The notes below the pieces were generated by a model. It ran no database searches. It was not told where the DNA came from and worked only from the letters and a program-made list of their open reading frames with translations. A stretch of DNA of 64,000 nucleotides from a virus (taxonomy: Duplodnaviria > Heunggongvirae > Uroviricota > Caudoviricetes): IMG/VR virus record IMGVR_UViG_3300037312_000757. One strand, written 5' to 3'. The position numbers were made by a program, and so were the translations under genes. Positions 33,895 to 48,044 of the stretch are shown here, in pieces; position 1 is the first letter of the stretch; each line of letters begins with the position of its first letter.

Positions 33895-33945
33895 GAGTTT
33901 GTTTACCATGTTCAAATGGTAAATTCACCTGAAGAATGAATCAAG
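33895..33945 (-). promoter_or_regulatory. conserved early-promoter/operator/leader repeat (consensus copy)
   Basis: Plus-strand tgTTTACCATgttcaaATGGTAAAttcacctgaa...tcaagtg. On the coding strand this reads cTTGAyT-N17-TACCAT then TGAACATGGTAAACA, then GGAGA-N5-8-ATG. One of at least 40 copies (listed in the findings). Confidence 0.6.
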
Positions 33946-34204
33946 TGTTTTTCACTACGTTGTCAGAAAATGTCAGCTTGAACTGCATGGCGATCAACTC
34001 ATCGCGGAATGCATAGACGTTGATCAGATGCACAAAGTCATCACTTTGGCATTGTGCAGCCAGCCATGCCTGAGCCTCGTCCTTAACACGCGGCGCAATG
34101 AGTTGATACTGGAATGGATAATGGCGCCGCAGAAGCGTGGCGCTGTTTTCGTTGGGTTTGCGGGGTTGAGCTTTAACAAAGTCAACCCATTCTAATGGAG
34201 TCAT
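33941..34204 (-). CDS. paralog family A small protein (C-terminal F..LTF motif)
   Basis: 87 aa ending ...DELIAMQFKLTFSDNVVKNT. ATGA-coupled. Confidence 0.5.
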   Translation of the reverse strand: MTPLEWVDFVKAQPRKPNENSATLLRRHYPFQYQLIAPRVKDEAQAWLAAQCQSDDFVHLINVYAFRDELIAMQFKLTFSDNVVKNT

Positions 34205-34518
34205 GCGATACCGTAAGTTAATTTAAACATTGCTGCGTCACCAAGTTCCTCGAAACACCAAATAGCACTGATGCCTTTGGGCGTCGATACGATGGCACCG
34301 AATTCACCTGTCGTGTTGTTATCGAGAAATTCGTCCAGGTCAGCGGTCTTGCGACCAGCTTCACGGAAAGCTCGGCGGTGATCATCGGTCAGCACCACAT
34401 AGCCTTCAGGGACAAAACCGAGATCATCAACACCACGGATGATAGCTGGCCAGAAAACGTCACGAATGTTCGCGTCTGCGAGGACCTGTTCTAGCCTCTT
34501 CATCTGCGCTTGGTTCAT
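34201..34518 (-). CDS. paralog family A small protein
   Basis: 105 aa ending ...ELGDAAMFKLTYGIA. RBS GGAGAGAG. Promoter repeat upstream. Confidence 0.55.
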   Translation of the reverse strand: MNQAQMKRLEQVLADANIRDVFWPAIIRGVDDLGFVPEGYVVLTDDHRRAFREAGRKTADLDEFLDNNTTGEFGAIVSTPKGISAIWCFEELGDAAMFKLTYGIA

Positions 34519-34571
34519 ATCTCTCTCCGTGGTTTACCGTAGCCAGATGATACTTTCACTTGAACCAAGAA

Positions 34572-34880
34572 TCAACACCACGTCAGCTTGAATATAGCAG
34601 CTTCGGACAGGTCTTCAAACACCATCACCATAGCGATATCGGTGAATGCCGGTGAGGTTAGTCGGTGAAATTCACCTTTAACGTTATCAGCCATCCAATC
34701 AAAGAAATAGTCAACAGTTAGGTTCGGGAATGTTTCGTTGCTGATGACTACAAATCCCTGTGGTTTGAATGGCAACGCTTTCAAAATCTTCTCGAAGGTT
34801 TCAAGCTCCCAATCACGTTGGCTGAACATGGTGGGCTTGCAACCGTAAAACTCGTTGAGGGTCTCAGTCAGAGTTTTCAT
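34572..34880 (-). CDS. paralog family A small protein
   Basis: 102 aa ending ...DLSEAAIFKLTWC. TGAATGA junction. Confidence 0.55.
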   Translation of the reverse strand: MKTLTETLNEFYGCKPTMFSQRDWELETFEKILKALPFKPQGFVVISNETFPNLTVDYFFDWMADNVKGEFHRLTSPAFTDIAMVMVFEDLSEAAIFKLTWC

Positions 34881-35140
34881 TCAAATGCAAGCTTGCAAGC
34901 AATAGCATCGGCCATCGACTCAAAGTAGATGCCGTTGCAGAACTGGGGATTGAAATACCGACTCGCCAAGCTGTCGAACCATTCCTTGTTATCCCGCACT
35001 AACTTGACTGCGGCCGTATTGTAGCAGCGCAATACACAAGCAGGAGTCCAGCAAATCGTGGTAAGTTTGAGTCTGCGTACTTCTTTCACATTAGGACGTT
35101 CATCAATGAAATCCTCTACTGTCATTATTTTAAGCGCCAT
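34877..35140 (-). CDS. paralog family A small protein
   Basis: 87 aa ending ...MADAIACKLAFE. Confidence 0.5.
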   Translation of the reverse strand: MALKIMTVEDFIDERPNVKEVRRLKLTTICWTPACVLRCYNTAAVKLVRDNKEWFDSLASRYFNPQFCNGIYFESMADAIACKLAFE

Positions 35141-35417
35141 CGACTAGCCATGTAAGTTTGAACATCAGTGCAACATTTTCATCAGTGAAGAACCAATACT
35201 TGTCGCTTTTTCGTTGAGCGTTTCGCCCTGTTCTTTGCACCAGTTGCGCATATTCTTTAATGCCCCACGGGTCCAAATTCCTGACACGTAGAACAATCGT
35301 GACATTGTGTTCCAGCAAGCGTCTGGCGAGTTCTGGACGATGTGCTGGGTTTTGATAGCGCACGTAATCAAGAACAGGAATTACAGCGCTGCCATCGTCG
35401 TTTAATGTGATTGCCAT
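35130..35417 (-). CDS. paralog family A small protein
   Basis: 95 aa ending ...ENVALMFKLTWLVDGA. Begins 10 nt after an intrinsic terminator. Confidence 0.5.
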   Translation of the reverse strand: MAITLNDDGSAVIPVLDYVRYQNPAHRPELARRLLEHNVTIVLRVRNLDPWGIKEYAQLVQRTGRNAQRKSDKYWFFTDENVALMFKLTWLVDGA

Positions 35418-35427
35418 ATGGTGAAAA

Positions 35428-35445
35428 GGGGAACTTTTGTTCCCC
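35428..35445 (-). terminator. intrinsic terminator
   Basis: GGGGAACaaaaGTTCCCC plus TTTT on the minus strand. Immediately precedes the ATG of the gene at 35417. Confidence 0.55.
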
Positions 35446-35460
35446 TAGTGTAGCACAGCA

Positions 35461-35480
35461 CTGGCAACCTTAGTTGCCAG
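35461..35480. promoter_or_regulatory. CTGGCAAC-ctta-GTTGCCAG perfect palindrome
   Basis: Same 8-mer half-sites as at 13453. Near-copy at 802-828 and single half-sites at 9880-9950, 15170-15200, 15920-15940, 36550-36560, 58845-58915 and 59560-59600. Confidence 0.45.
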
Positions 35481-35487
35481 TTGTGGC

Positions 35488-35847
35488 TTAGTGACGCGTG
35501 TTCAGCTTACCCTTCGACATGTCGGAGTAGAAGTGCTTCGTCACGTCGGCCACGAGATTCGGGCACAGCGTCATTTGCATCGCCGGCGAAGCAACCGGGG
35601 TGTACACATCACCACCATCCGTGCGGCCACCGATCTTTTCTGCCCACTTTTCCATCACGGCGCCCAGCTCGCTCAGGAAGCGCGTCTTGAACTTCAGCTT
35701 GCCGTTACGCCGACCCCAGAAGTTGACCAGCTTGCCGTCGATCTTCGCGATGCCCCAGATTTTGTCATTAGAAGCAGCACCGCCTGCGTTGCCACGTGCG
35801 CCTTCGTTGTAGAAGTGACCAAACTTGAGGATTTCGACGTTTGCCAT
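35488..35847 (-). CDS. paralog family B protein (GRRxGKLxFKT core)
   Basis: Start MANVEIL. Shares M.VEI...GH...G.RG..GG.SKD.V.G.A......GRRGG.L.FKT with 39657 and 45470 genes. Conserved 5'-UTR hairpin upstream. Confidence 0.6.
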   Translation of the reverse strand: MANVEILKFGHFYNEGARGNAGGAASNDKIWGIAKIDGKLVNFWGRRNGKLKFKTRFLSELGAVMEKWAEKIGGRTDGGDVYTPVASPAMQMTLCPNLVADVTKHFYSDMSKGKLNTRH

Positions 35848-35880
35848 GTTCATTTCTCCTTAAAGTTGTTGCAGCGTTTT

Positions 35881-35899
35881 GTTTGCTGCGTTGCGTCTA
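35881..35899 (-). promoter_or_regulatory. conserved 5'-UTR hairpin of paralog family B mRNAs
   Basis: GCAGCgttttgtttGCTGC between the promoter repeat and the RBS. Equivalents at 40083-40097 and 46014-46034. Confidence 0.4.
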
Positions 35900-35958
35900 C
35901 CATGTATCACATTCTACATTCATTTGGTAGGCAGTCAACAACTAAATGAACATTTTTG

Positions 35959-36186
35959 TCATTCTTTTTGCGCCAGCTTTACTTGCTGTTTGTAGCGTTC
36001 CTCCCACGCTGCCATCGGCCATGCTACCGACAGCAAGCAAATCAAGCAGAAGCCCTGGAACACACGAACGCCGCTGTCGCCGACGTACCATGAGCCCCCA
36101 ACGCCCCAGATCATTTGGCTGACGCCACACAGCATCGCAATCCACGACGTTGCGATAACAACTCCCAGCAAGATTTTGAGCTTCAT
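35959..36186 (-). CDS. small membrane protein
   Basis: 75 aa with two TM helices. RBS GGGGAA. Confidence 0.5.
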   Translation of the reverse strand: MKLKILLGVVIATSWIAMLCGVSQMIWGVGGSWYVGDSGVRVFQGFCLICLLSVAWPMAAWEERYKQQVKLAQKE

Positions 36187-36214
36187 TCTATTCCCCTATA
36201 CAGTTGTTGTTCGA

Positions 36215-36553
36215 TCACTTTTCCCAAGACCAGTTCGCGTTATGCAAGCGGGCGGCCACAATGCTGGCATCGCTGTAACACACCAAATAATGATGTCCTT
36301 CTTCTTTGACGACTAGTTGAGGATTTGAAGAGCACTGCACGTTCACGGTCGTTGCGCGTTGAAAGTCTTCCAGCGTGCGATGGCGTCGCCGTATGTCAGG
36401 AATCTGCGCATACAACATTTCGGTCACAGTCGGGTAGTAGCGCTCAGCCGCATCAGCTTGGATGCTCTTGCAGGGGGATAGACCGTATGTCATCGAGACT
36501 GAATAGGGATACGTATCCCTATTCAGTGCCGTGGTGGCAATTACCGTAATCAT
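36215..36553 (-). CDS. hypothetical protein (contains 30-bp perfect palindrome)
   Basis: 112-aa ORF with weak RBS. GTTGCCAG motif 15 nt upstream of the ATG. Confidence 0.5.
   Translation of the reverse strand: MITVIATTALNRDTYPYSVSMTYGLSPCKSIQADAAERYYPTVTEMLYAQIPDIRRRHRTLEDFQRATTVNVQCSSNPQLVVKEEGHHYLVCYSDASIVAARLHNANWSWEK
36498..36527. repeat. perfect 30-bp palindrome ACTGAATAGGGATAC|GTATCCCTATTCAGT inside a CDS
   Basis: Read directly from the sequence. Lies within the coding region of the 36215..36553 gene. Confidence 0.7.
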
Positions 36554-36620
36554 GTTGTTTTAGTTGCCAGAGATTTACAAACTTCCGATGCTAACTTCAT
36601 CGCAAGCACGGCGTCAACGT

Positions 36621-36782
36621 TTAAACCCGCGTGGCTATGATGGGATTGCCATGTATGCCGAAGTCGCCTTCGATGCCAAGTGCCTTGAAACCGGCTTCGA
36701 TCAATGCCTCTTGCTCATCTCCTACTTCGACAGTCATCTTGAAACCATCGTCGAATTCGACTTCGTATTCTTGCAAGCTCAT
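36621..36782 (-). CDS. small acidic protein (53 aa)
   Basis: Below the track cutoff. GGAG 7 nt upstream, directly after a promoter repeat. The plus-strand ORFs 36564..36827 and 36631..36903 are shadows. Confidence 0.45.
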   Translation of the reverse strand: MSLQEYEVEFDDGFKMTVEVGDEQEALIEAGFKALGIEGDFGIHGNPIIATRV

Positions 36783-36842
36783 GTCATGCTCCGGTTGTTA
36801 CCATGTTCAAATGGTAACATCAAATGAAATGCCAATCAAGCA

Positions 36843-37049
36843 TCAAATGATTTCGATCTCGTCACGTTTGACAGTACAAGCCGTATTGTTGGCTTCAAAG
36901 TGATACTCGCCGTTGCCCTTATCGATCAGCAGATCGCTCACCGTACCCTTCTTCAGCACGTCGCCGTTATCCAGTTTGATACGCTTCTTGAGCTTGGCTT
37001 TGAGCTTCGTATTGCTGGTGTACGCACGGACCATGTCGCTCAGTTTCAT
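36843..37049 (-). CDS. hypothetical small basic protein
   Basis: 68 aa. RBS AAAGGAGAAC. Confidence 0.5.
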   Translation of the reverse strand: MKLSDMVRAYTSNTKLKAKLKKRIKLDNGDVLKKGTVSDLLIDKGNGEYHFEANNTACTVKRDEIEII

Positions 37050-37079
37050 GTTGTTCTCCTTTAACCAAGAATGCGCCGC

Positions 37080-37364
37080 TTAACGCAGGTGCTCGAGGCC
37101 AGGGTGCTCGAATGCGCGTTCGAAGATCCAGCATTCGCCGTCTTCACGACGGTAGGTGCCAACGTGCTCTTCCGTCGACCCATGCTTGTCTTTCACGTCG
37201 CCAACATAGTAATACAGGAACAAGCCGTGCGTAACCCCGGGTTCGTTGCCTTCCTCGTCGTAAGAGCGCTTGACGATGTTCACGCCAGGGAATGTGTCAG
37301 CAACCAGTTCATCGAATGCTTGCGCCGTCAGTTTACCGCTAAACAACATTCCAATACGGGGCAT
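37080..37364 (-). CDS. hypothetical protein
   Basis: 94 aa. RBS AAGGAGAAC. Promoter repeat upstream. Confidence 0.55.
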   Translation of the reverse strand: MPRIGMLFSGKLTAQAFDELVADTFPGVNIVKRSYDEEGNEPGVTHGLFLYYYVGDVKDKHGSTEEHVGTYRREDGECWIFERAFEHPGLEHLR

Positions 37365-37467
37365 GCTTGTTCTCCTTGTTGTTTATCATGTTCAAAGAAT
37401 ATAGCCAAATGAAACAACAATCAAGCGGAAAAGCCACCGAAGTGGCTTTCTTTGTTTGCGTTTTCGC

Positions 37468-38025
37468 TTATGCTTGCTGCACAACCTTGCGTGCGGCAAG
37501 ATGATATGCGTTGGCGGCGTTAATCATCACCAGCATCGTCAGGCCGCCGAAGCTCAGTGCTTCATGATGTGCAAACACCAACACACCTTCCAGCAGGATC
37601 GTGAAGCCCCAAGCTTTGTAAACGTTGCCACACCACTTTTCTGCCCAGCTTGCAACCGACGGAGCCGAGAACATCAGCGCCGCAGCAACCAGAATCCAGA
37701 GCAGCGGTTGTTGAGCTGCTTCGTGGTGTGCGATCACAAAACTTGCAATCGGGAGAAAACCACTTGCGATCGCAGCAACGAACTGGCCGATCGTGCGCTT
37801 TTGTGCAGCGTTGATCTTGATCGGGGCGGCCGTCGGTTGCTTGCGCGAACCAGTGCGCTTCGACGCTTGCGGTTGTGCAACCTTCGGCTTATCAACTGCC
37901 GGTTTTGCGTCCTTCAGCGCTTGTGCAGCAGCACGACGAGCACGGCTACGAACAGCGCTGGGCGACATCGACAATTGCTTGTCCGACTTTGCTGCCAGTT
38001 CCACCACGTTAGCTGCGTTTGCCAT
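37468..38025 (-). CDS. protein with basic Lys/Ala-rich N-terminal region and C-terminal membrane domain
   Basis: Trimmed to MANAANVV. The C-terminal ~100 aa are hydrophobic. Confidence 0.6.
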   Translation of the reverse strand: MANAANVVELAAKSDKQLSMSPSAVRSRARRAAAQALKDAKPAVDKPKVAQPQASKRTGSRKQPTAAPIKINAAQKRTIGQFVAAIASGFLPIASFVIAHHEAAQQPLLWILVAAALMFSAPSVASWAEKWCGNVYKAWGFTILLEGVLVFAHHEALSFGGLTMLVMINAANAYHLAARKVVQQA

Positions 38026-38093
38026 GTTTGCTTCTCCTTTGTTGTTTACCATGTATCAAATGATATGCTCAGGTGAATGTGGTTGCAAGCGCT

Positions 38094-38396
38094 TTATGGA
38101 ATAAATGTGGCGAGTGGTTTGAGAAAGAACGCGCCTAATACATCAAGCTGCGTGTTGGCGAAACCAACCTGGAACCAATGGTAGCCCAGATAACCATCAA
38201 CGAGAATGTCTACCTCCACGTTGTCGTTTTTGTAGCGGATATTCGTCTCAGTTTTCTCATACCAATCTCGGTCGAGATCAAGATCACAATAAGTCTTGAA
38301 GAACTCGTCTACTGCCACTTTTGTTTGTGGAAGATCGTAAGAAATCAGCATTCGGTTTTCTGGTATCGGTATGTTGGGTACCGGCCCAAAATTCAT
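38094..38396 (-). CDS. hypothetical protein
   Basis: 100 aa. ATGA-coupled to the upstream gene. Confidence 0.5.
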   Translation of the reverse strand: MNFGPVPNIPIPENRMLISYDLPQTKVAVDEFFKTYCDLDLDRDWYEKTETNIRYKNDNVEVDILVDGYLGYHWFQVGFANTQLDVLGAFFLKPLATFIP

Positions 38397-38674
38397 GTTT
38401 TAGTAACCGCGTTGAGGATCATGTCCAGCGCGTGCAGGAATTCATCACTCTGCATGCGTTCAGAACCGCGCAGGAGCCTCACCGTGATGATGGCGTTTTC
38501 AAGATCGCTGTTGGTATAGTCAACCCCATTCCACAGCGCGATGGCGCCGTCTTGCGTTTCGTGGGGTTTGCTTTGATGGCCGCAGAAATGGCATTTCAGA
38601 AAAAACTTGCCAATCTGGTGTACGTGAATGGTCTCTTGATTACCGCACTTGCAGGCTTTGAAGGATGAGGACAT
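38393..38674 (-). CDS. zinc-binding small protein
   Basis: CKCG...CHFCGH. RBS AGGAG. Confidence 0.5.
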   Translation of the reverse strand: MSSSFKACKCGNQETIHVHQIGKFFLKCHFCGHQSKPHETQDGAIALWNGVDYTNSDLENAIITVRLLRGSERMQSDEFLHALDMILNAVTKT

Positions 38675-38739
38675 AGCATACTCCTAAGACAGTTGCCATA
38701 TCCCCATACTATTGCAGAAAAATTATGGCATCAAGAATT

Positions 38740-39216
38740 TTACTTGATGTGTTGCTTGATTGCATTCACCAATGCGACACGCATGGCATTGCGATGCGCT
38801 TCAGCGGCTTCAGCGTCGGTGCGAGCGTCTTCGACCGTCGCATTCTCAAGTGCCGTGATCGCATTCATGATGTCTTCGGGAATGTCGAACTTCTTCGCCA
38901 TATCCACCTTTGCTTTGGTGATCTCGGCTGCGATCTGACGCAGTTCATCCGGCCCACCAACGGTGAAGTTAACAGTCACATCGCTTTCCAGCGAGCCATA
39001 TTGAATGAAGCAGTTAAACACACCTGCCTTGATGATTTGTGCGCCGTAACCACCGTCCGACATGACAGCTTTACATTCGCCCAACATATGCACACCTTCT
39101 GCACTCCAGATACCACCCATTTGTGGGTGGTCGGGTTTGATCAGTTCACCATGTTGCCGAATGTACTGATACAGGGCGTTGAAAACTTGCGCCAGTTGAA
39201 TGTTATGCACTTTCAT
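38740..39216 (-). CDS. hypothetical protein
   Basis: Trimmed to MKVHNIQ after CGAGGAGAAC. Confidence 0.55.
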   Translation of the reverse strand: MKVHNIQLAQVFNALYQYIRQHGELIKPDHPQMGGIWSAEGVHMLGECKAVMSDGGYGAQIIKAGVFNCFIQYGSLESDVTVNFTVGGPDELRQIAAEITKAKVDMAKKFDIPEDIMNAITALENATVEDARTDAEAAEAHRNAMRVALVNAIKQHIK

Positions 39217-39277
39217 CTTGTTCTCCTCGTCGGTTACCATGTTCTTATGGTAACTTCACCTGAACCTGGCTACAAGC

Positions 39278-39538
39278 CTAATGCACGACATAAAGATGGT
39301 TGAACATGCTGTCGTCAAACAGTTCGTCACGTTCTTGGCATTCACGTGCGAAATTGAACCGCACAAGCATACACAGATACAGCACATCATCTGCTGTTAG
39401 CTTGAAGTGAGAACCATCAAATGGCAAGCCAGAAATGCGAAGGAGTCGAAGAAGCTCGTCATCTGTGAGGCGATGATCCCGTTTCACGTTGCGTACTTCA
39501 ATCGACCCCACAAACCGTCCGTCTTCTCGTGTCAGCAT
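39278..39538 (-). CDS. hypothetical protein
   Basis: 86 aa. RBS AGGAAAC. Confidence 0.5.
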   Translation of the reverse strand: MLTREDGRFVGSIEVRNVKRDHRLTDDELLRLLRISGLPFDGSHFKLTADDVLYLCMLVRFNFARECQERDELFDDSMFNHLYVVH

Positions 39539-39611
39539 AACGTTTCCTGATCGTCTTAATGTTCACATTGTTGTTTCATATGAACATTAAGTCAAGCAGG
39601 AAGCCAGTTGG

Positions 39612-39642
39612 CAAAAGGGCCCGGGATTGCTCACGGGCCTTT
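39612..39642. terminator. bidirectional intrinsic terminator
   Basis: AAAAGGGCCCGggattgctcaCGGGCCTTTT. Confidence 0.6.
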
Positions 39643-39656
39643 TGCGCATCACGGAC

Positions 39657-41673: not shown

Positions 41674-41733
41674 TATTATTCTCCCGCACAAAGGTTATTG
41701 GACTTCAGATGATACGTTCATATGAACATACAG

Positions 41734-42006: not shown

Positions 42007-42007
42007 G

Positions 42008-42253: not shown

Positions 42254-42259
42254 CTCGTT

Positions 42260-42305
42260 CTCCTGTCGTTACCATGTTCATATGGTAAGTTCAAATGAAC
42301 AATCA
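42260..42305 (-). promoter_or_regulatory. conserved promoter/operator/leader repeat copy
   Basis: ttaccatgttcatatggtaagttcaaatgaacaatcagtcaagcgc. Confidence 0.55.
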
Positions 42306-42602
42306 GTCAAGCGCAAGATAGAATTGCATAGCATCAGAATGATTCTGGAAATACGCAAAACCAAGTCCGTCCAATGCATACTGCTGAATGCCTTGGTTCT
42401 TCAGAATTTTTTCGTAAACACTGGGCGCTTCAATAGCAGACGCGACAACGAATTCAATCGTTATCTTGTTTTGGCGCTCCAATCGTCCTATGTCAATGCG
42501 GCGTTTTTTGCGCGTCTCGCGTGATGCACGCTGCTTCAGAAAATTGCCCTTGAAGTCGTACTCGACGCCGACAAAATCTTCAACGGTAAAGAGCTCAGCC
42601 AT
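42303..42602 (-). CDS. paralog family A-like small protein
   Basis: 99 aa ending ...HSDAMQFYLALD. Confidence 0.5.
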   Translation of the reverse strand: MAELFTVEDFVGVEYDFKGNFLKQRASRETRKKRRIDIGRLERQNKITIEFVVASAIEAPSVYEKILKNQGIQQYALDGLGFAYFQNHSDAMQFYLALD

Positions 42603-42662
42603 GACGATCCCCTAGCATAATATCTAGGGGAAGTGTAACTGTAACAGGCAAGCTCGTAAAGC

Positions 42663-43169
42663 TTACGCCTTCTGCTGTAGTGCTTCGAGGACCAGCGGGT
42701 GAATGTACTTTGCGACTTTCACTTCCCAGTTGTCGAAGCCGACAAACCCGCGCACCGCTGATGAACTGATACGAGTTTTGTCTTCGGGCGGGATAACGAA
42801 AACATGGTCGATTTCGCTTTCGATATCCATGTTGAACCCTTGAATGTCTTTCTCGTAATCGAAATCGACACCGTTCCGAATACCGCGCATGATTGTGGTA
42901 ACGCCCAAGCGCTTCGCCACGCTGACGGTGAATTCATTTTCGACAACTACAAACTTCAGCTTTGCGAACAGTTCAGGTGTCAGAGAATCAGCTAGTACAC
43001 GACGAGCCAGGTCTTCACGCTCAACAGCATTGAACATGCCCTTCTTTGCTGGATTGTAGGCGATTGCAAAGTAGACTTCATCGAATGTCTTGCAAGCTCG
43101 TTCGACCATCCACTCATGGCCACGGGTGATGGGGTCGAATGACCCCGTTGTCATACCAATCGTGTACAT
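42663..43169 (-). CDS. coaD: phosphopantetheine adenylyltransferase (CoaD/PPAT)
   Basis: TGSFDPITRGHEWMVERA ... RGIRNGVDFDYE ... ISSSAVRGF aligns along the full length of CoaD (T/HxGH motif and ISSS motif). TAATG-coupled to coaE. Confidence 0.8.
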   Translation of the reverse strand: MYTIGMTTGSFDPITRGHEWMVERACKTFDEVYFAIAYNPAKKGMFNAVEREDLARRVLADSLTPELFAKLKFVVVENEFTVSVAKRLGVTTIMRGIRNGVDFDYEKDIQGFNMDIESEIDHVFVIPPEDKTRISSSAVRGFVGFDNWEVKVAKYIHPLVLEALQQKA

Positions 43170-44404
43170 TAGATCCAACGCCCCCATTTCTTGATGATGT
43201 TGTTTACGTTGCGCTTCGCGTTGTCCTCGAATTGCGAGAAGTGCGGCGAATGGAAAATCCGTTCACGATCAGCAAACGTCTTCATTGCCACGACTCGACC
43301 ACGAGCAAATGTGATGACGTCGTATTGGTCTTTGAATTCTTGATACACCGCTTCGTCGAACGCATTAGCTTCTGCTTCAGTTCCGCCGAGCATCATCAAG
43401 TCCACGTCCAAGAACAGTTCGCAATCAGCTTTCAGTTCAGGATTCGAAAGCAAGTATGGAGACGTGATCGCATGGCCTTTAGTCGCCATGATGAATTCGG
43501 CAACCGTGGCCAGTGTCGGTATACCAGCTTCAATCTCGAAGCCCAGTGCTTCTGGCAGATGCTCCCTGAACTGTTCCATCATGAACTTGACACTCCACGC
43601 TTCGTTGAAGGCGTACAGGTCCTTGTAAGCGCTGTAGACAGCGTCGTGATAGATGATTGCCAGTCCCGCAATGCCCGGATAGTTAAACTTTTCGACGTTG
43701 TTCATGAACCAGCGGTACATCTGGCGTGGATGATCAGCGTTATGCCAGTGCCGACTCGTATCGAAATACTGCTTCATTGCATTGTCGAACAGAACACCAG
43801 CTTCCTTTTCGTGACCGTAGAATGCACCCTGGAAAAACAAACGCAGATCTTGCAGCGAGATACGATCAGCAATGCGCTTCGCCTCGTCCTCCAGATCCTC
43901 GAGAGAAATGTTGGTATCAACCGTGTCGTCGGCCATTGCGATCTTGACACGCGTGCTCAGTTGCGCTGCGCGGATGCGTTCGATCTTCTCCTGCGTGAAG
44001 CCATCTCGCGCCATCACACGCTGCATCTGCACGTCATCTGCGCAGTGACACGTGATGACAAAGTCATACTTGCCGCTCTTGCCCATTTCGTACAGAAGCG
44101 GGAACTCCATCACCAGATGTTTCTTGTAGTCGTAGTTCGCCAGCTTCCAACGCATTGTGTCCTTGGTCAGGTCTTCCAACCACAGACGATCGGCCGAGTT
44201 GTTGAACACGATGTCCGACACCTTCTTGCGGTCGGACGTGCCGAAGCGATTCTCGAGATCAAGCTTGAACGCTTTGTCGTTGTAGAGGTCGCGAACCATG
44301 TCGTCGATGCTTGCGTGCTCGTAGTTTGCCGCCAAGTGTTTCAGCAGCAACTTCGTGAATGTTGTCTTGCCACAGCCGATGTTGCCAGTGATGGCTACTC
44401 GCAT
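43169..44404 (-). CDS. coaE: dephospho-CoA kinase (CoaE) fused to a C-terminal HD-domain phosphohydrolase
   Basis: N-terminal MRVAITGNIGCGKTT P-loop and CoaE-like blocks (IDDMVRDL, FPLLYE, DDTVDTN). C-terminal HWHNADHP...IIYHDAVY HD motif. RBS GGGAGA. Confidence 0.8.
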   Translation of the reverse strand: MRVAITGNIGCGKTTFTKLLLKHLAANYEHASIDDMVRDLYNDKAFKLDLENRFGTSDRKKVSDIVFNNSADRLWLEDLTKDTMRWKLANYDYKKHLVMEFPLLYEMGKSGKYDFVITCHCADDVQMQRVMARDGFTQEKIERIRAAQLSTRVKIAMADDTVDTNISLEDLEDEAKRIADRISLQDLRLFFQGAFYGHEKEAGVLFDNAMKQYFDTSRHWHNADHPRQMYRWFMNNVEKFNYPGIAGLAIIYHDAVYSAYKDLYAFNEAWSVKFMMEQFREHLPEALGFEIEAGIPTLATVAEFIMATKGHAITSPYLLSNPELKADCELFLDVDLMMLGGTEAEANAFDEAVYQEFKDQYDVITFARGRVVAMKTFADRERIFHSPHFSQFEDNAKRNVNNIIKKWGRWI

Positions 44405-44473
44405 GAATGGTCTCCCGTAAATGAGGCCATTCTATATTCGTTTGTGACTACCGTAAAGTCTATCAACAAATTG

Positions 44474-44499
44474 AAAAGGCTCCCAGTTGGGAGCCTTTT
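44474..44499. terminator. bidirectional intrinsic terminator
   Basis: AAAAGGCTCCCagttGGGAGCCTTTT. Confidence 0.6.
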
Positions 44500-44501
44500 C
44501 A

Positions 44502-45071
44502 TTACCACGGAAAATCAGCCTTCTTGATCTTGACTAACCGACCATCAGGGTGCCACCAAACGACACCTTCAATCGGCTTATCACGCAGATATTCCATGAT
44601 GCCATCAAACGTGCGTGGGCAGTCTTCCAAGATATCCTTGCCGTGCGGGACAAGAATGTGCTCGGTCAAGCCTTCCGGATTAGCACCGTGCCGCGTCCCA
44701 ATCTTGGGGCCACAAGCCTCGTAAGTGCCATCAGGAATGCCATCAGCATACTTACCCTTCAAAGCCCATTCAACAGCTTCGCGAATCCACTTCGAATCCG
44801 GACCATCAGTAGGTACCCAGCCTGGCCAGTGACCAGACTTGGGATCCGGGTTAGGTTGGGCAGGGATGAAGTCCACGGGAGGGGTTCTCCCAGCCTTAGC
44901 GTCGTAACGCTTAAAGACTCGACCATCCTTTACCAACACGGCCACGCCATCCCACTTACGAGTGGCGTAACCTTCCCCAGAAACAACCCATTCAGTTCCG
45001 GGCGTAACTTCGTCACGAACCTTACGGTCACCATCGTAGTTACGAACAAACAACGAAACGGTCTTCTTCAT
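44502..45071 (-). CDS. minimal nucleotidyltransferase of the ligase superfamily (KxDG), RNA/DNA-ligase-like
   Basis: Start MKKTVSLF after AAGGAG. Motif I RKWDG, motif IV EGVVWW, motif V LVKIKK. Confidence 0.5.
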   Translation of the reverse strand: MKKTVSLFVRNYDGDRKVRDEVTPGTEWVVSGEGYATRKWDGVAVLVKDGRVFKRYDAKAGRTPPVDFIPAQPNPDPKSGHWPGWVPTDGPDSKWIREAVEWALKGKYADGIPDGTYEACGPKIGTRHGANPEGLTEHILVPHGKDILEDCPRTFDGIMEYLRDKPIEGVVWWHPDGRLVKIKKADFPW

Positions 45072-45193
45072 GTACTGCTCCTTAAAAGTGATGAGATAGT
45101 TTTCGAGTCCCATCAACGCCACCTTTAAGGCTTACTGCAACTTCCTTTACTGCTAAGCCATATTGTATATATGGCTCATACTACAGTCAAGCA

Positions 45194-45409
45194 CTACTCG
45201 CTAGGGCAATCGGCATAAGGTGCCAAATCAATTCGAATCTTGCCGTTTGTTGCCACTACATGTTCGTAGACCTCTCCACTTTGCGTGAATTTCCGCAAGC
45301 GTTCAGGATAGAACTCGGGTATTCTTGCGCATAGCCATTCGGTAGCCGCCACGCAACCCATCCTACGTCTTTTCGACCCCCATTCTTCAATGGCTGCATC
45401 TAAAGTCAT
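45194..45409 (-). CDS. hypothetical small protein
   Basis: 71 aa. RBS GGAG. Confidence 0.45.
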   Translation of the reverse strand: MTLDAAIEEWGSKRRRMGCVAATEWLCARIPEFYPERLRKFTQSGEVYEHVVATNGKIRIDLAPYADCPSE

Positions 45410-45469
45410 GATTACTCCGGAAATGACGATGGCTAGGTTTTACCCTAGCCATCTTGCTATGCCATCAGC

Positions 45470-45976
45470 TTACGCTGCCAGCTTTGCTGCTTGCGCTGCC
45501 GCGATCGAAGCTTGCGTCGGGAACGCGAACACCTTCTTCGGGTCCGGAGCCTTGTACTTCGGAGCCTTCGGGGCCTTTGCTGCCTTTGCTTCGGCGCCCT
45601 TCGCCGTTTCACGCGTGTTCAGCTTCTTGTTCGTCGATGCCTTGTGGAACATCTTGCCAAGCGTGTCTGCGAAGTCTGCACCCAGCACTTCGTCGCGTGC
45701 TGCTGCGTCGAGATCCTTGTACGCGAAGCCCTTGTCCTTGCCCGTCAGCTTCACGTCCGTGTAGAACGCGAGGACCTTGTCCATGTCTGCCTTCTTGTAC
45801 GTCTTGAAGCGCAGCATGCCACCGCGACGACCACCGAACGTTGCCAGCGTCGTCACCACGCCGAAGTTGATCAGCGCAATACCAAACACGCTGTCCTTCG
45901 ACGGTGCGCCACCGTTGTCACCACGCTTGCCAGCAACCAGTGCGTGACCAACACGAACGATTTCGATCTTTGCCAT
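45470..45976 (-). CDS. paralog family B protein with AKAPKAPKYKAPDPKK histone-like tail
   Basis: MAKIEIVRVGHALVAGKRG...GRRGGMLRFKT. 5'-UTR hairpin GCAGCGctttgtcttCGCTGC. Confidence 0.6.
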   Translation of the reverse strand: MAKIEIVRVGHALVAGKRGDNGGAPSKDSVFGIALINFGVVTTLATFGGRRGGMLRFKTYKKADMDKVLAFYTDVKLTGKDKGFAYKDLDAAARDEVLGADFADTLGKMFHKASTNKKLNTRETAKGAEAKAAKAPKAPKYKAPDPKKVFAFPTQASIAAAQAAKLAA

Positions 45977-46142
45977 GTTCATTTCTCCTTAAAGTTGTTT
46001 ACCAGTTTTGTTTGCAGCGCTTTGTCTTCGCTGCGTCGTCTACCATGTCGCTATATTATGTTCATCTGAAACTTGAATCAACAGCTAAATGAACAAATTT
46101 TCAACTTTTTTCATCTGTTGTGGCAACACAACATGGTTCAAA

Positions 46143-46595
46143 TTATCTGCAACCGTAGTCGTATGCTACCAAACGTCCATGACGATTGAATCCTACTTGA
46201 CCTCCGTCAACACTCCAAGTCCAGTCAGACTCGCCAGGAGGCGTACCCAAGTGCTCTTCTACTTCTCGTACTGAAGCATGGCGAACGCATTCCATAAAGA
46301 CTATGGCAATGTCACCAACATAGACAAGACGTGTTCGCGCGTATTGCACATACTGGGGATCACCATAATTCTCACCGTTGGAAACGGATCCTTCCCAGTC
46401 ATTATCAGCAACACCATCCCAGTTCATGGGAATCTTCACGACATAGTTGGTGAAAACGAATACCATACGGTTGCGGCCGCACAAAACATCCGGAGTTCTG
46501 GTTGCATAACGCAACGCCAAGTTTTTCACTGTTTCATTGACTTCCGAATCATGAAATTGAATCCAGTCGTCAAGATTTGAAATATCAGCAGTCAT
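46143..46595 (-). CDS. hypothetical protein
   Basis: 150 aa. RBS GGTGGTGA. Confidence 0.55.
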   Translation of the reverse strand: MTADISNLDDWIQFHDSEVNETVKNLALRYATRTPDVLCGRNRMVFVFTNYVVKIPMNWDGVADNDWEGSVSNGENYGDPQYVQYARTRLVYVGDIAIVFMECVRHASVREVEEHLGTPPGESDWTWSVDGGQVGFNRHGRLVAYDYGCR

Positions 46596-46906
46596 ACATA
46601 TTCACCACCAAAGCGGAAGTAGAACGCAAGTGCATCAGCGTGTTTCAAGAACATGTAGATGCCAATACGGGTGATTGCAGCGTATTCCGTGCGCACCCCG
46701 GGCACGTCAGACACATTGTCCATGCACCAGTCAATCATGTCACACCAGCCGTTAAGCGACGTGGCTTCTTTGCCGGTGATATGCACGACATAGATGGTGT
46801 CAGGACTACGCATGCCACGTATGGCCTTTCGGATCTGTGTCCAATACTCCTTCTCGAAGCCATGCACGAAGGCGTCGATATCCTTGATCTCGGTTACGCT
46901 AGACAA
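46592..46906 (-). CDS. paralog family A small protein (start uncertain, possibly TTG)
   Basis: Ends ...HADALAFYFRFGGEYV. The track N-terminus overlaps the upstream gene. TTG preceded by GGGGGA. Confidence 0.4.
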   Translation of the reverse strand: MSSVTEIKDIDAFVHGFEKEYWTQIRKAIRGMRSPDTIYVVHITGKEATSLNGWCDMIDWCMDNVSDVPGVRTEYAAITRIGIYMFLKHADALAFYFRFGGEYV

Positions 46907-47195
46907 ATCGAGTCCCCCAAGTAAGATAAAAGTGCAAAGCGTCAGTGTATTCTTTGAAAAAGAAGAAACCAAGGTCATCGTCAGTCAAGTATCGGCCATC
47001 CATGTACTCGATAAGCCAATCGGTGATCTCTTCCCTGTTAGATACAACAATGACTGTGTCGACATCGACCAGATACACGGTTGATGGGAAATCACGCAAA
47101 GACTGTTTCATCTTTGCGTAATCTTCCATGAAATAAAACGTGTTGAGCAGCTTGTTCAACTCATACTGGTCAAGCTGCCTTATCTGCGTGCTCAC
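46899..47195 (-). CDS. paralog family A small protein
   Basis: 98 aa ending ...YTDALHFYLTWGTRFV. GTG start, GTGA junction. Confidence 0.5.
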   Translation of the reverse strand: MSTQIRQLDQYELNKLLNTFYFMEDYAKMKQSLRDFPSTVYLVDVDTVIVVSNREEITDWLIEYMDGRYLTDDDLGFFFFKEYTDALHFYLTWGTRFV

Positions 47196-47413
47196 TTGAT
47201 TGCCTTTTGCAGTGCAGCGATCATCATCTGGAGTCGATCTTTCGACTGGTGACGCGCCAGAAGTTGAGCAGCTTGTTCCATGTGAACCTTCGCAGTTTCT
47301 TCGGAGCTGCCGAAGATCTCGAAACCATATTCTTGGAATTCGAGCAAGGCGCGTTGCGTTTCCGTGCGACGTTCTTCTTGAGCTGCTTGATAACGTTGTG
47401 CGCTGTTCATCAT
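47192..47413 (-). CDS. hypothetical small protein
   Basis: Trimmed to MMNSAQRY after GGAGAAC. Confidence 0.5.
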   Translation of the reverse strand: MMNSAQRYQAAQEERRTETQRALLEFQEYGFEIFGSSEETAKVHMEQAAQLLARHQSKDRLQMMIAALQKAIK

Positions 47414-47483
47414 GTTCTCCTGTTCATCTACCATGTTCCTATAGTAGTTTCATATGAAACACGAATCAAGCACAGAATGAACG

Positions 47484-47504
47484 AAGGCCCCATAAAGGGG
47501 CCTT
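47484..47504 (-). terminator. intrinsic terminator
   Basis: AAGGCCCCataaaGGGGCCTT. Confidence 0.5.
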
Positions 47505-47523
47505 GCTATGCTGTTGCTGATGT

Positions 47524-47697
47524 TTACAGCAAACCGCGTTCTCGAATATTCACCACTTCTACAAAGGTCCATTCAGACTTAATGGCTTCGGCGGCGGTCT
47601 GAGCCTGTTCTTCAGTCTCGTGTGTGGATTTGACGTCGCTCAATCCACCCCAAGGGTAATATTGATTCACCCCAATAACCCACCAAATCTTGTCCAT
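47524..47697 (-). CDS. hypothetical small protein
   Basis: Start MDKIWWV 8 nt after AAGGAG. Confidence 0.4.
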   Translation of the reverse strand: MDKIWWVIGVNQYYPWGGLSDVKSTHETEEQAQTAAEAIKSEWTFVEVVNIRERGLL

Positions 47698-47729
47698 TAT
47701 TTGATCTCCTTTCTTGGAACCAAAGTCCA

Positions 47730-48044
47730 CTAACTCATGCGATCCAGGTGGGTTAGATAAAACTGAATCGCGTCGACGTGGTCAGTAAAGAAATAAAGAC
47801 CAACATCAGATTGTGCGAAATACAATTGCGCGGGAACGTTTGATGCTAACCAAGTCAGCATTGATTCTTGCGCATCAGCAATCCAAGCACGCTCATTGCA
47901 ATCGACCACGAACACTTTGTCACCACAGATATCACGCACCGCTTGCAGTACCATAGCGATGTCTTCATCACCAACATTGAACTTCAGAAATAGCCTGAAG
48001 TCCTGGCTGTCGATAACGTATTCCCTGACTTGGTTACTCGCCAT
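47730..48044 (-). CDS. paralog family A small protein
   Basis: Ends ...HVDAIQFYLTHLDRMS. Start set at MASNQV. Confidence 0.5.
   Translation of the reverse strand: MASNQVREYVIDSQDFRLFLKFNVGDEDIAMVLQAVRDICGDKVFVVDCNERAWIADAQESMLTWLASNVPAQLYFAQSDVGLYFFTDHVDAIQFYLTHLDRMS

What the first reader, a model, noticed from the sequence alone, without database searches (positions are those of the whole stretch)
33941..48044. Expanded family (≥13 members) of small tandem paralogs with a conserved C-terminal [FY]F..x.DA..F.LTW motif
Genes at 33941-34204, 34201-34518, 34572-34880, 34877-35140, 35130-35417, 40231-40533, 40535-40864, 40866-41156, 41153-41476, 41734-42006, 42303-42602, 46592-46906, 46899-47195 and 47730-48044 encode 87-128-aa proteins with divergent N-termini but a shared C-terminal block: ...MFKLTYGIA, ...IFKLTWC, ...MFKLTWLVDGA, ...AFHFTWC, ...LVYMTWF, ...KFYMTHG, ...LWLLTWG, ...QFYLALD, ...AFYFRFGG, ...HFYLTWG, ...QFYLTHL. 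They sit in three tandem arrays, mostly translationally coupled by ATGA/GTGA overlaps. Fast-evolving multi-copy arrays of small proteins in a phage early region are typical of anti-defence or host-takeover factors that diversify against variable host targets. I recognise no known domain, so this may be an undescribed family.
Basis: seen in the sequence. Interest (0 to 1): 0.75.

Follow-up and report, generated by a model that had tools for sequence, protein, structure and literature searches.

The report
Undescribed small-protein family expanded in huge phages
The window carries 15 diverged copies of a roughly 90-residue protein domain that is in no domain library searched, is found almost only in phages, and forms arrays of up to 24 genes in phages with 400-520 kb genomes; its function is unknown, and the best guess is a set of small proteins that each bind a different host target.

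Summary
All 14 listed genes are homologous. Each left-out member ranks above all 543 non-family ORFs of the window and above 500 shuffles of itself. A 15th member lies at 28419-28787. Similarity covers the whole ~90-aa protein, not only the C-terminus.

The family is much wider than this window:
- 104 cluster representatives match among 1.84 billion proteins.
- 188 members occur in 360 kb of IMG/VR loci, mostly from 100-465 kb contigs, in arrays of up to 24 genes per 13 kb.
- At least 16 members occur in 80 kb of the cultured 469 kb Sinorhizobium phage Phosso.
- Only three true hits occur in 185,579 bacterial and archaeal genomes.

Paralogs are old (32% identity or less). Orthologues diverge faster than neighbouring genes (median 56% against 73%), and copy number changes between relatives.

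Function was not tested. I favour early-expressed, target-diversified binding proteins for host takeover or anti-defence (about 0.4). Packaged internal proteins and nucleic-acid binders remain open.

The parts
33941..34204 (-). Family member, 87 aa, last gene of array A. Ends ...MQFKLTFSDNVVKNT.
   Evidence: Leave-one-out E 0.0017. 0 of 500 shuffles reach its score. External profile E 3.7e-9.
34201..34518 (-). Family member, 105 aa, array A. It has its own promoter of the conserved class.
   Evidence: Leave-one-out E 5e-6. External profile E 5e-11. Promoter sequence. Orthologue P0004 is 66% identical.
34572..34880 (-). Family member, 102 aa, array A.
   Evidence: Leave-one-out E 1e-7. External profile E 1e-12.
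34877..35140 (-). Family member, 87 aa, array A. Its C-terminal block is degenerate (ADAIACKLAFE).
   Evidence: Leave-one-out E 0.005. External profile E 1.5e-6. Orthologue P0006 is 59% identical.
35130..35417 (-). Family member, 95 aa, first gene of array A.
   Evidence: Leave-one-out E 2e-5. External profile E 1.2e-7. No reciprocal orthologue in the relative.
40231..40533 (-). Probable family member, 100 aa, last gene of array B. This is the weakest member.
   Evidence: Leave-one-out E 0.018. 0 of 500 shuffles reach its score. The external profile fails (E 1.3). AlphaFold2 model has pLDDT 94.9 and the family topology.
40535..40864 (-). Family member, 109 aa, array B.
   Evidence: Leave-one-out E 5.5e-8. 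BLASTP against 40866-41156 gives E 3.5e-11.
40866..41156 (-). Family member, 96 aa, GTG start, array B.
   Evidence: Leave-one-out E 4e-7. The same GTG-start gene call is on record in the protein collection as P0010.
41153..41476 (-). Family member, 107 aa, array B.
   Evidence: Leave-one-out E 3e-8. Orthologue P0005 is 68% identical.
41734..42006 (-). Family member, 90 aa, array B. It is separated from its neighbours by unrelated small genes.
   Evidence: Leave-one-out E 6e-5. Its orthologue is 62% identical.
42303..42602 (-). Family member, 99 aa, first gene of array B, just downstream of the CoaD-like gene.
   Evidence: Leave-one-out E 3.6e-5. External profile E 1.6e-4.
46592..46906 (-). 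Family member, 104 aa if it starts at TTG 46906. The longest ORF starts at ATG 46978. Array C.
   Evidence: Leave-one-out E 1e-4. The 108-aa orthologue in the relative supports the short form. P0011 is on record with the same start.
46899..47195 (-). Family member, 98 aa, GTG start, array C. This is the protein that was modelled first.
   Evidence: Leave-one-out E 2e-9. AlphaFold2 model has pLDDT 90.3 and pTM 0.81.
47730..48044 (-). Family member, 104 aa, array C.
   Evidence: Leave-one-out E 2e-10. BLASTP against 46899-47195 gives E 6e-11.
28419..28787 (-). Additional, 15th member, 122 aa, outside the reported range. It has a Lys/Arg-rich C-terminal tail and its own consensus promoter.
   Evidence: It is the best non-family hit in 12 of 14 leave-one-out runs. 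External profile E 3.5e-4. Its orthologue is 96% identical, the most conserved of the family.
33898..49275 (-). Set of conserved sigma-70-like promoters that drive the short operons holding the family genes. Examples lie upstream of 34518, 35853, 42253, 41691, 47434, 48264 and 49246. Consensus: CTTGAC, spacer containing GTTCAnnTGAAC, TATCAT, then CATGGTAAACAAC.
   Evidence: The 13-mer occurs 21 times against 1.9 expected, 20 of them on the minus strand.

Best explanation
These genes encode a phage-restricted, single-domain α/β protein of about 90 residues that no domain library searched describes. I provisionally call it the 'DAxxFKLTW' domain.

The conserved residues are mainly large hydrophobics (W, F, A, F, L, W) and helix-capping residues (N, G, D). 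They look like a fold-determining core rather than a catalytic site. The remaining positions, and the net charge, differ freely between copies.

The genes sit in short, translationally coupled operons behind strong sigma-70-like promoters, in variable regions between conserved genes of very large phages. There they have been duplicated, kept for a long time and diversified.

My preferred reading is a multigene family of small binding proteins made early in infection. Each paralog would use the common scaffold to bind, and block or redirect, a different host protein, whether a defence protein or a housekeeping hub. Copy number would track the range of hosts and defences the phage meets.

Shown here: homology, fold prediction, phage restriction, expansion, turnover, and faster divergence than neighbours.
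Inferred only: early timing, the binding function, and host targets.
For: - Homology of all members.
- Confident common fold: pLDDT 90.3 and 94.9, same order of elements.
- No enzyme-like or known-family match.
- The near-invariant columns are W, F, A, F and L.
- pI ranges from 4.3 to 9.9 within the window, so there is no common charge-based mode of action.
- Phage restriction: 44 IMG/VR loci against 3 true hits in 596 Gb of bacterial and archaeal genomes, using the same pattern.
- Expansion: 188 members in 360 kb of loci, with arrays of 24, 21 and 17 genes.
- Copy number at one syntenic site, between the two topoisomerase II subunit genes: 0, 2, 7, at least 10, and 11.
- The relative phage has 16 members in the syntenic 35 kb. 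Five window members have no orthologue there.
- Orthologue identity has a median of 56% for the family and 73% for neighbours, one-sided Mann-Whitney p = 0.003.
- Paralogs are 32% identical or less, so copies have been kept for a long time.
- Sigma-70-like conserved promoters and tight coupling.
- A sub-threshold Lar-like restriction-alleviation gene lies between arrays A and B.
Against: - No member has any experimental or annotated function, and no target is known.
- No significant similarity to any known anti-defence protein was found. No anti-defence profile library was available to search.
- Between relatives about 99% identical to each other, the family genes are 98-100% identical. There is no sign of an ongoing arms race at that timescale.
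- dN/dS could not be estimated because synonymous sites are saturated between the available relatives.
- The one member with a basic tail (28419-28787) is 96% conserved, which looks more like a housekeeping role.
- Early expression is inferred from promoter sequence only.
Confidence: 0.4

Rival explanations
1. Packaged internal proteins. Like the T4 IPI/IPII/IPIII locus, the paralogs would be loaded into the very large capsid and ejected with the DNA, and would act in the first seconds of infection. This could still be an anti-defence role.
For: - Full-length members share an N-terminal 'M-x-x-h-x-h-[DE]-[FWY]-h..E' motif. From memory, this loosely recalls the T4 capsid-targeting sequence MKTYQEFIAE.
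- One IMG/VR member (L024 1292-1735) is an in-frame fusion with an N-terminal fragment of the major capsid protein Gp23 (PF07068, E 8.5e-10).
- One distant member lies beside PAAR and tail-fibre genes.
- From general knowledge: huge capsids carry many internal proteins, and paralogous virion-protein families are known in phiKZ-like phages.
Against: - In both models the N-terminal residues form strand β1 and helix α1 of the domain. Cleaving off a leader would remove part of the fold.
- Short members of 58-70 aa lack the N-terminal part altogether.
- In this window the genes lie among metabolic and early-type genes behind sigma-70-like promoters, not in a structural module.
- The Gp23 fusion is a single case among about 300 members.
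Confidence: 0.12
2. Nucleic-acid-binding or regulatory proteins. The domain would be a small RNA- or DNA-binding module, and the paralogs would act as gene-specific regulators or RNA chaperones for the huge genome. Iyer et al. proposed something similar for the roughly 35-copy zinc-ribbon expansion of Bacillus phage G.
For: - The most conserved member (28419-28787) has a Lys/Arg-rich tail and pI 9.9.
- A small-domain expansion in a jumbo phage has been read as transcription factors or DNA-binding proteins (PMC7824862).
Against: - Most window members are acidic or neutral: 9 of 15 have pI below 6.8, down to 4.3.
- The representatives found elsewhere have a median pI of 5.3, and only 8% are above pI 8.
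- No conserved basic or aromatic surface motif is evident. The conserved residues look like core residues.
Confidence: 0.15
3. Immunity-like or inter-phage competition factors. The arrays would be collections of antidotes to toxins or exclusion systems of competing phages or hosts, like orphan immunity-gene arrays of polymorphic toxin systems.
For: - Tandem arrays of small, highly diverged paralogs whose copy number varies between relatives resemble immunity-gene arrays.
- One distant member lies near a PAAR-domain gene.
Against: - No toxin gene is associated with the arrays in the window, in Phosso or in the IMG/VR loci examined.
- No Pfam immunity family matches.
- The family is nearly absent from bacterial genomes, where such systems live.
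Confidence: 0.08
4. Chance motif or non-coding ORFs. The C-terminal similarity would come from composition or from repeated DNA.
For: Pairwise BLAST E-values between many members are weak, from 0.01 to 1.
Against: - Leave-one-out ranking succeeds in 14 of 14 trials.
- 0 of 500 shuffles reach the real score for all 14.
- An independent external profile recovers 14 of the 15 members.
- Orthologues are conserved in relatives.
- AlphaFold2 gives confident folds.
- 104 homologous cluster representatives were found elsewhere.
Confidence: 0.01

Closest known systems
Hyperplastic regions of T4-type phages with PeSL (early promoter plus stem-loop) cassettes (Arbiol 2010, PMC2839356; Comeau 2014, PMC4122927)
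   Same: - Small ORFs of unknown function are grouped between conserved core genes. In Phosso-like phages they lie between the two topoisomerase II subunit genes.
- A highly conserved sigma-70-like promoter is repeated many times, in some cases preceded by a terminator hairpin (47504-47484).
- Gene content differs between relatives by insertions and deletions at these sites.
   Different: - Here one homologous family fills the regions in arrays of up to 24 genes, instead of unrelated ORFans.
- The phages have 420-524 kb genomes and are only distantly T4-like.
- Recombination at the promoter repeats was not demonstrated here.
T4 internal proteins IPI*, IPII and IPIII
   Same: - Small proteins encoded in tandem.
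- Polymorphic between relatives.
- At least IPI* counters a host restriction system (from general knowledge).
   Different: - No sequence match was found to any solved structure in the PDB sequence profile search.
- The capsid-targeting leader and protease site are not established here.
- Copy number is an order of magnitude higher.
- Packaging is untested.
Lineage-specific expansion of a zinc ribbon (about 35 copies) in Bacillus phage G (Iyer et al. 2021, PMC7824862)
   Same: A small domain greatly expanded in one jumbo-phage lineage, with unknown function.
   Different: - A different fold, with no metal-binding cysteines conserved across the family.
- The present family is spread over many phage lineages of 30-524 kb, not one genome.
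Multigene families of large eukaryotic DNA viruses, such as ASFV MGF110/360/505 and poxvirus ankyrin/PRANC (from general knowledge)
   Same: - Tandem arrays of diverged paralogs.
- Copy-number variation between strains.
- In those viruses the roles are host range and immune evasion.
   Different: - Unrelated proteins and hosts. This is an analogy of genome behaviour only.
- A function in host range is not shown here.
[not shown]
   Same: A small two-layer α/β arrangement. 57-77 residues can be superposed at 1.9-3.0 Å.
   Different: - The order of elements is β-α-α-β-α-β-β-α, not β-α-β-β-α-β.
- Foldseek finds nothing below E = 1 in the PDB.
- There is no sign of common ancestry.

Membership tests
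Any curated protein family (Pfam-A 2025, NCBIfam 20.0, PHROGs v4, PADLOC 2.0) | A profile HMM match at or near the family threshold. | tested here: not met
   96 members were scanned against Pfam, NCBIfam and PADLOC. 86 were scanned against PHROGs. No family was hit by more than one member, and no hit lay in the domain itself.
Any protein with a solved structure | Significant sequence-profile or fold similarity. | tested here: not met
   [not shown]
Barrier-to-autointegration factor (BAF), the best PDB sequence hit | An all-α helix-hairpin-helix fold of about 89 aa, with significant sequence similarity. | tested here: not met
   E 0.04 only. The aligned 'AYVVL' segment is a β-strand in both models, whereas BAF is all-helical (the BAF fold is from general knowledge).
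DNA-mimic anti-restriction proteins (Ocr/ArdA type) | A uniformly strong negative charge that mimics the DNA backbone. | tested here: not met
   pI ranges from 4.3 to 9.9. Net charge ranges from -9 to +13 among the 15 window members.
T4-type internal proteins | An N-terminal capsid-targeting sequence ending in a prohead-protease site (L/I-x-E). | tested here: inconclusive
   A loosely similar N-terminal motif is present in many full-length members. It is predicted to be strand β1 and helix α1 of the fold, and it is absent from short members.
T4-type internal proteins | Presence in the virion and ejection with the DNA. | not testable with these tools
   This needs virion mass spectrometry. A single Gp23-fragment fusion (L024) is the only hint.
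Lineage-specifically expanded viral multigene family | Several homologous genes in tandem in one genome. | tested here: met
   15 members in 20 kb of the window, in runs of 5, 4 and 2 contiguous genes. Up to 24 members in 13 kb elsewhere.
Lineage-specifically expanded viral multigene family | Copy-number turnover between related genomes. | tested here: met
   The syntenic 35 kb holds 15 members in the window and 16 in the relative. Five window members lack a reciprocal-best orthologue in the relative, and six of the relative's members have no such partner in the window. At the topoisomerase II site the counts are 0, 2, 7, at least 10, and 11.
Lineage-specifically expanded viral multigene family | Faster divergence than flanking genes. 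| tested here: met
   Median orthologue identity is 56% for the family against 73% for neighbours, p = 0.003. Against small neighbours only, p = 0.002.
PeSL-type hyperplastic region | A repeated, conserved early-type promoter, with or without a stem-loop, flanking the variable ORFs. | tested here: met
   21 copies of CATGGTAAACAAC, at up to 2 mismatches, against 1.9 expected, most with conserved -35 and -10 hexamers and some with an upstream hairpin. A role in recombination was not tested.
Anti-defence proteins in general | Demonstrated inhibition of a defence system, or homology to a protein with that activity. | not testable with these tools
   No anti-defence profile library was available. 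No homologue carries a name.

The most novel reading that the evidence does not exclude
This could be the first large multigene family of bacteriophages comparable to those of ASFV or poxviruses. It would be a new fold used as an evolvable scaffold, with each paralog neutralising a different host defence or host factor, and with array size setting the host range of the largest known phages. A bolder variant: the conserved C-terminal helix docks on one common machine and the variable surface selects the victim, making the family a set of adaptors. A candidate machine is the Clp-type unfoldase that Phosso-like phages encode beside some arrays.
Probability: 0.25. Interest if true: 0.85.

Novelty: new member of a known kind. 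Interest (0 to 1): 0.62.

Why it matters
Huge phages of 200 kb and more are mostly made of genes with no assigned function. This single domain accounts for 15 genes in 20 kb of this window and for up to 24 genes per 13 kb in other huge phages, yet it is absent from Pfam, NCBIfam and PHROGs. BLAST cannot even connect the paralogs within one genome.

Defining the family does three things:
- It gives a name to a visible fraction of huge-phage dark matter.
- It provides a ready-made natural series of variants on one scaffold for finding host targets.
- It points to a cultured carrier, Sinorhizobium phage Phosso (469 kb, at least 16 members in the 80 kb scanned). Deletion of arrays, virion proteomics and pull-downs are feasible there.

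If the paralogs turn out to be defence inhibitors, the family would be a large new source of anti-defence proteins. It could also partly explain why these genomes grow so large.

Tried and rejected
- **Megablast of the region against 50,697 phage records:** no match.
- **tblastn into the phage records:** P0020 and a consensus sequence found nothing. A Phosso member found only itself. BLAST is too insensitive for this family.
- **Word-indexed protein search with alignments:** only 8-9 hits, mostly the window's own proteins and close relatives. The exhaustive HMM search was needed.
- **The search for related loci with the family alignment:** It was replaced by a degenerate DNA pattern for D-A-M-x-F-K-L-T-W.
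- **BAF similarity (E 0.04):** rejected on predicted secondary structure.
- **AFDB50 fold search:** library not available.
- **Functional link to the three 'GRRGGKLRFKT' paralogs that flank the arrays:** rejected. Only 1 of 44 IMG/VR loci carries such a gene. My recollection that they are WGR domains was not confirmed by Pfam or the PDB profile.
- **Strain-level hypervariability of the arrays:** rejected. The divergent patch between the 99%-identical relatives lies in the Band_7 region, not in the arrays.
- **Domain fusions as functional clues:** the longer members are tandem duplications of the same domain. There is one aconitase-like N-terminus (P0061) and one Gp23 fragment (L024), and nothing recurrent.
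- **dN/dS:** not attempted. Window and relative are too diverged, and the closer relatives are too similar.
- **Literature searches for the motif and for paralog arrays in huge or jumbo phages:** no description found.

Full report
**1. What is there**

The region is gene-dense and entirely on the minus strand.

Pairwise BLASTP links only some of them strongly:
- 40535-40864 against 40866-41156, E 3.5e-11
- 46899-47195 against 47730-48044, E 6e-11
- 34201-34518 against 34572-34880, E 1.6e-7

The others connect only through the C-terminal block. I therefore tested the family with profiles.

| Test | Result |
|---|---|
| Leave-one-out: HMM of 13 members, scored against all 557 ORFs of at least 40 aa in the window | The omitted member ranked 14th in all 14 trials, above every non-family ORF (E 2e-10 to 0.018) |
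| Shuffle control with leave-one-out profiles | None of 500 shuffles of any of the 14 reached the real score |
| HMM built only from 63 metagenomic proteins from elsewhere | 14 window ORFs at E <= 3.5e-4, then nothing better than E 0.065 |

The one that fails is 40231-40533 (E 1.3). It remains a probable member for two reasons. It passes the in-window tests. Its AlphaFold2 model, built with the family alignment, has pLDDT 94.9 and the family's order of elements. That model is not independent of the alignment, so it is supporting evidence only.

The gene at 28419-28787 carries the W..EN..G and DAAKIKLSF blocks and a Lys/Arg-rich tail.

**2. Anatomy of the domain**

The shared sequence is not just a C-terminal motif. 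The alignments show four blocks:
- an N-terminal 'h-x-h-x-[DE]-[FW]-h'
- 'F-x-P-x-h-V-V'
- 'W-(L/C)-x-E-N-(C)-x-G-x-(W/Y)'
- 'h-h-F-(F/E)-x-x-x-D-A-h-x-F-K-L-T-W', with the protein ending within 0-10 residues of the final W in the window members, and usually within 1-3

AlphaFold2 on 46899-47195 with a 96-sequence alignment gave pLDDT 90.3 and pTM 0.81. The elements are β1(5-8) α1(10-20) α2(23-32) β2(40-44) α3(51-64) β3(69-72) β4(77-80) α4(83-93). The weakest member gave the same order.

The near-invariant columns are W, F, A, F and L, with N, G and D at helix ends. This is what a folding core looks like, not a catalytic site. That reading is an inference from the sequence pattern, because I had no coordinates.

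pI runs from 4.3 to 9.9 among the window members.

**3. Comparison with what is known**

| Library or search | Result |
|---|---|
| Pfam-A | nothing |
| NCBIfam | nothing |
| PHROGs | nothing |
| PADLOC | nothing |
| Family profile against all PDB sequences | best E 0.039, to BAF |
| Foldseek against the PDB | nothing below E 1 |
| Foldseek against BFVD | only 'uncharacterized protein [uncultured Caudovirales phage]' entries; the best covers the 54-residue core at rmsd 1.3 Å |

I reject the BAF hit. BAF is all-helical, and the aligned segment is a strand in both models.

Literature searches for the motif, and for paralog arrays in huge or jumbo phages, found no description. The nearest published parallel is the roughly 35-copy zinc-ribbon expansion in phage G (PMC7824862).

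**4. Distribution**

*Source of the window.* The window's proteins are on record from a JGI contig of 523,837 bp. Orthologues at 35-96% identity come from a 523,572 bp contig and its fragments.

*Wider family.* An exhaustive HMM search of 1.84 billion cluster representatives found 104 proteins at E <= 1e-3. They have a cleaner consensus, 'EWCxENCxGxW ... F-FEDExDAMxFKLTWG'. Thirteen carry two tandem copies of the domain.

*Viral contigs.* A degenerate DNA pattern for D-A-M-x-F-K-L-T-W hit 44 loci on 30 IMG/VR contigs. Of these, 25 loci lie on contigs above 100 kb, including seven contigs of 277-465 kb. Scanning those 360 kb with the family HMM found 188 members. The largest arrays are:
- 24 genes in 13 kb (L051)
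- 21 genes in 7 kb (L047)
- 17 genes in 7 kb (L040)

*Bacterial and archaeal genomes.* The same pattern in 596 Gb gave six hits, of which three are true members. All three are in Alphaproteobacteria: Allosphingosinicella, Rhizobium and Novosphingobium.

*Ordinary phages.* Distant members also occur in normal-sized phages, for example a 42.5 kb contig with terminase, portal and a VapE-like primase.

*A cultured carrier.* Sinorhizobium phage Phosso (PV764938.1, 469,473 bp) has at least 16 members in the 80 kb I scanned. All are annotated as hypothetical proteins.

*One site, many copy numbers.* Several arrays lie between the genes for the large and medium subunits of topoisomerase II:

| Genome or locus | Members at that site |
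|---|---|
| Agrobacterium phage Atu_ph07 | 0 (the two genes are adjacent) |
| Sinorhizobium phage Phosso | 2 |
| L049 | 7 |
| L029 | at least 10 |
| L048 | 11 |

**5. Evolutionary behaviour**

Within the window the closest paralogs are 28-32% identical over most of their length. The copies are therefore old and have been retained, not recently amplified.

I compared the window with the syntenic 35 kb of the 523.6 kb relative, which has 16 members:
- Ten window members have reciprocal-best orthologues, at 35-68% identity. The basic-tailed gene is the exception, at 96%.
- Five window members have no orthologue.
- Six of the relative's members have no partner in the window.
- Flanking genes are mostly 65-88% identical. 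The family median is 56% against 73% for neighbours, one-sided Mann-Whitney p = 0.003. Against small neighbours only, p = 0.002.

Between relatives that are about 99% identical to each other, the family genes are 98-100% identical. The only diverged patch (76-88%) lies in the Band_7 region. So the family evolves fast on the long scale and is subject to gain and loss, but it is not a hypermutating locus.

A third relative is IMGVR_UViG_3300017565_000001 (424.5 kb). It shares the promoter motif, and its stretch L069 is syntenic with the window around array A and carries seven family members.

**6. Expression signals**

The 13-mer CATGGTAAACAAC occurs 21 times at up to 2 mismatches, against 1.9 expected. 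Twenty copies are on the minus strand.

Aligning the upstream sequences shows a full promoter: gCTTGAC, then a spacer containing the palindrome GTTCAnnTGAAC, then TATCAT, then six bases, then the 13-mer. A GGAG and an ATG follow.

Promoters of this class lie upstream of 34518, 35853, 42253, 41691, 47434, 48264 and 28787. The family genes are therefore transcribed in short operons.

Inside the operons, successive genes overlap by 4-11 nt or are 1 nt apart, mostly without their own Shine-Dalgarno sequence. This fits translational coupling.

The near-consensus -35 and -10 hexamers suggest transcription by unmodified host RNA polymerase, and hence early transcription. This is an inference.

The arrangement resembles the promoter and stem-loop cassettes (PeSLs) that flank variable ORFs in the hyperplastic regions of T4-type phages (PMC4122927).

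**7. Interpretation**

What is shown:
- a bona fide, undescribed, phage-restricted domain
- a compact fold predicted with high confidence
- conserved residues that look structural
- heterogeneous surface charge
- large lineage-specific tandem expansions in the largest phages
- copy-number turnover and accelerated divergence

This profile is typical of viral multigene families whose members each bind a different host component. I therefore favour early-expressed, target-diversified binders for host takeover or anti-defence, at about 0.4.

Nothing here demonstrates binding or a target. The only contextual hint of anti-defence is a sub-threshold Lar-like zinc ribbon at 38393-38674 (24 bits against a cut-off of 28.6).

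Rivals that remain open:
- Packaged internal proteins (about 0.12). In favour: an N-terminal motif that, from memory, loosely recalls the T4 capsid-targeting sequence, and one fusion to a Gp23 fragment. Against: the N-terminus is part of the predicted fold.
- Nucleic-acid-binding regulators (about 0.15). In favour: RRM- and ACT-like structural neighbours and the basic-tailed conserved member. Against: most members are acidic.
- Immunity-like antidotes (about 0.08). Against: no toxins nearby, and near absence from bacterial genomes.

Chance is excluded.

**8. Verdict**

The statement that no known domain matches is upheld by every library available. The functional guess is reasonable but untested.

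The family is new as a family. As a phenomenon, an expanded family of small accessory proteins in variable regions of large viruses is a known kind.

Interest is moderately high for three reasons. The family is large, it has been invisible to BLAST-based clustering, and it is now testable in a cultured phage.

Noticed in passing
window 20753-57955, minus strand (for example 28803-28815, 33132-33144, 38041-38053, 49229-49241, 55376-55388): A conserved promoter class: gCTTGAC, a spacer containing the palindrome GTTCAnnTGAAC, TATCAT, six bases, then CATGGTAAACAAC, followed by GGAG and ATG. There are 21 copies of the 13-mer against 1.9 expected. The palindrome between the -35 and -10 hexamers looks like an operator for a phage regulator. 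The same motif occurs four times in IMGVR_UViG_3300017565_000001 (424.5 kb).
   Followed up: partly
window 35488-35853, 39657-40058, 45470-45982 (minus): Three paralogs of 121-170 aa sharing 'GHxxxxGxRGxxGG...F(W/Y/G)GRRGGKL(R/K)FKT'. Each lies behind the conserved promoter and has a conserved 5'-UTR hairpin (GCAGC...GCTGC). The copy at 45470-45982 has an Ala/Lys/Pro-rich tail. I recalled the motif as WGR-like, but Pfam and a PDB profile gave no support. They flank the three arrays here, but only 1 of 44 IMG/VR loci has such a gene.
   Followed up: partly
window 35418-35460 and 42603-42640 (minus strand, just upstream of the first genes of arrays A and B): G+C-rich hairpins containing CTAGGGG end 7-11 nt before the start codons: GGGGAAC-AAAA-GTTCCCC-TTTT before 35417, and CCCCTAG-ATATTATG-CTAGGGG before 42602. 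No Shine-Dalgarno sequence is present. They could be terminators or attenuators, or translational control elements.
   Followed up: no
window 42663-45122 and 48328-48708, 50120-50899 (minus): A cluster of metabolic genes among the arrays: a CoaD-like cytidylyltransferase (PF01467), a dephospho-CoA kinase CoaE with a C-terminal extension of about 240 aa, an RNA-ligase-like protein (PF17720), and S-adenosylmethionine decarboxylase (PF02675). The relative's orthologue of 50120-50899 carries a radical SAM domain.
   Followed up: partly
window 38393-38674 (minus): A zinc-ribbon protein with a sub-threshold match to the Lar restriction-alleviation family (PF14354, E 4.6e-5, 24 bits against a cut-off of 28.6). 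The relative's orthologue carries the same weak hit.
   Followed up: partly
window 22407-22804 (minus): Three tRNA genes: Pro-TGG, Ala-TGC and Val-TAC.
   Followed up: no
relative contigs L001/L003 against L002, positions 26700-29400 of the merged relative; corresponds to window about 31500-33800: Between relatives that are otherwise 99-100% identical, a 2.7 kb patch is only 76-88% identical. It covers a 132-aa gene, a 224-aa gene (orthologue of 32460-33143) and the Band_7/SPFH gene (orthologue of 31547-32452). This looks like a recent recombinational replacement.
   Followed up: partly
L024 1292-1735 (minus), IMGVR_UViG_3300032284_002783: An in-frame fusion of an N-terminal fragment of the T4-type major capsid protein (PF07068 Gp23, E 8.5e-10, profile positions 4-48) with a complete family domain. 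The stored stretch ends just upstream, so the context is unknown.
   Followed up: no
L048 54-7656, L049 1514-8199, L029 6182-10686, L066 15690-19976, L059 2699-5885: The site between the genes for the large and medium subunits of topoisomerase II is an insertion hot spot for the family in Phosso/Atu_ph07-like huge phages. Counts are 0 (Atu_ph07), 2 (Phosso), 7, at least 10, and 11 members.
   Followed up: yes
P0061 (metagenomic protein, 123 aa): One family member has an N-terminal segment of about 70 residues matching the aconitase / isopropylmalate dehydratase large subunit (NCBIfam E 4e-18). It is either a gene fusion or an assembly chimera.
   Followed up: no
window 814-1878, 1897-2619, 7862-8791 (minus): Larger proteins at the window's left end match PHROGs families of the 'moron / auxiliary metabolic / host takeover' category (membrane protein phrog_30252, E 8e-89) or of unknown function. 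From memory, the neighbouring 136-735 ORF looks TerD-like. This was not tested.
   Followed up: partly
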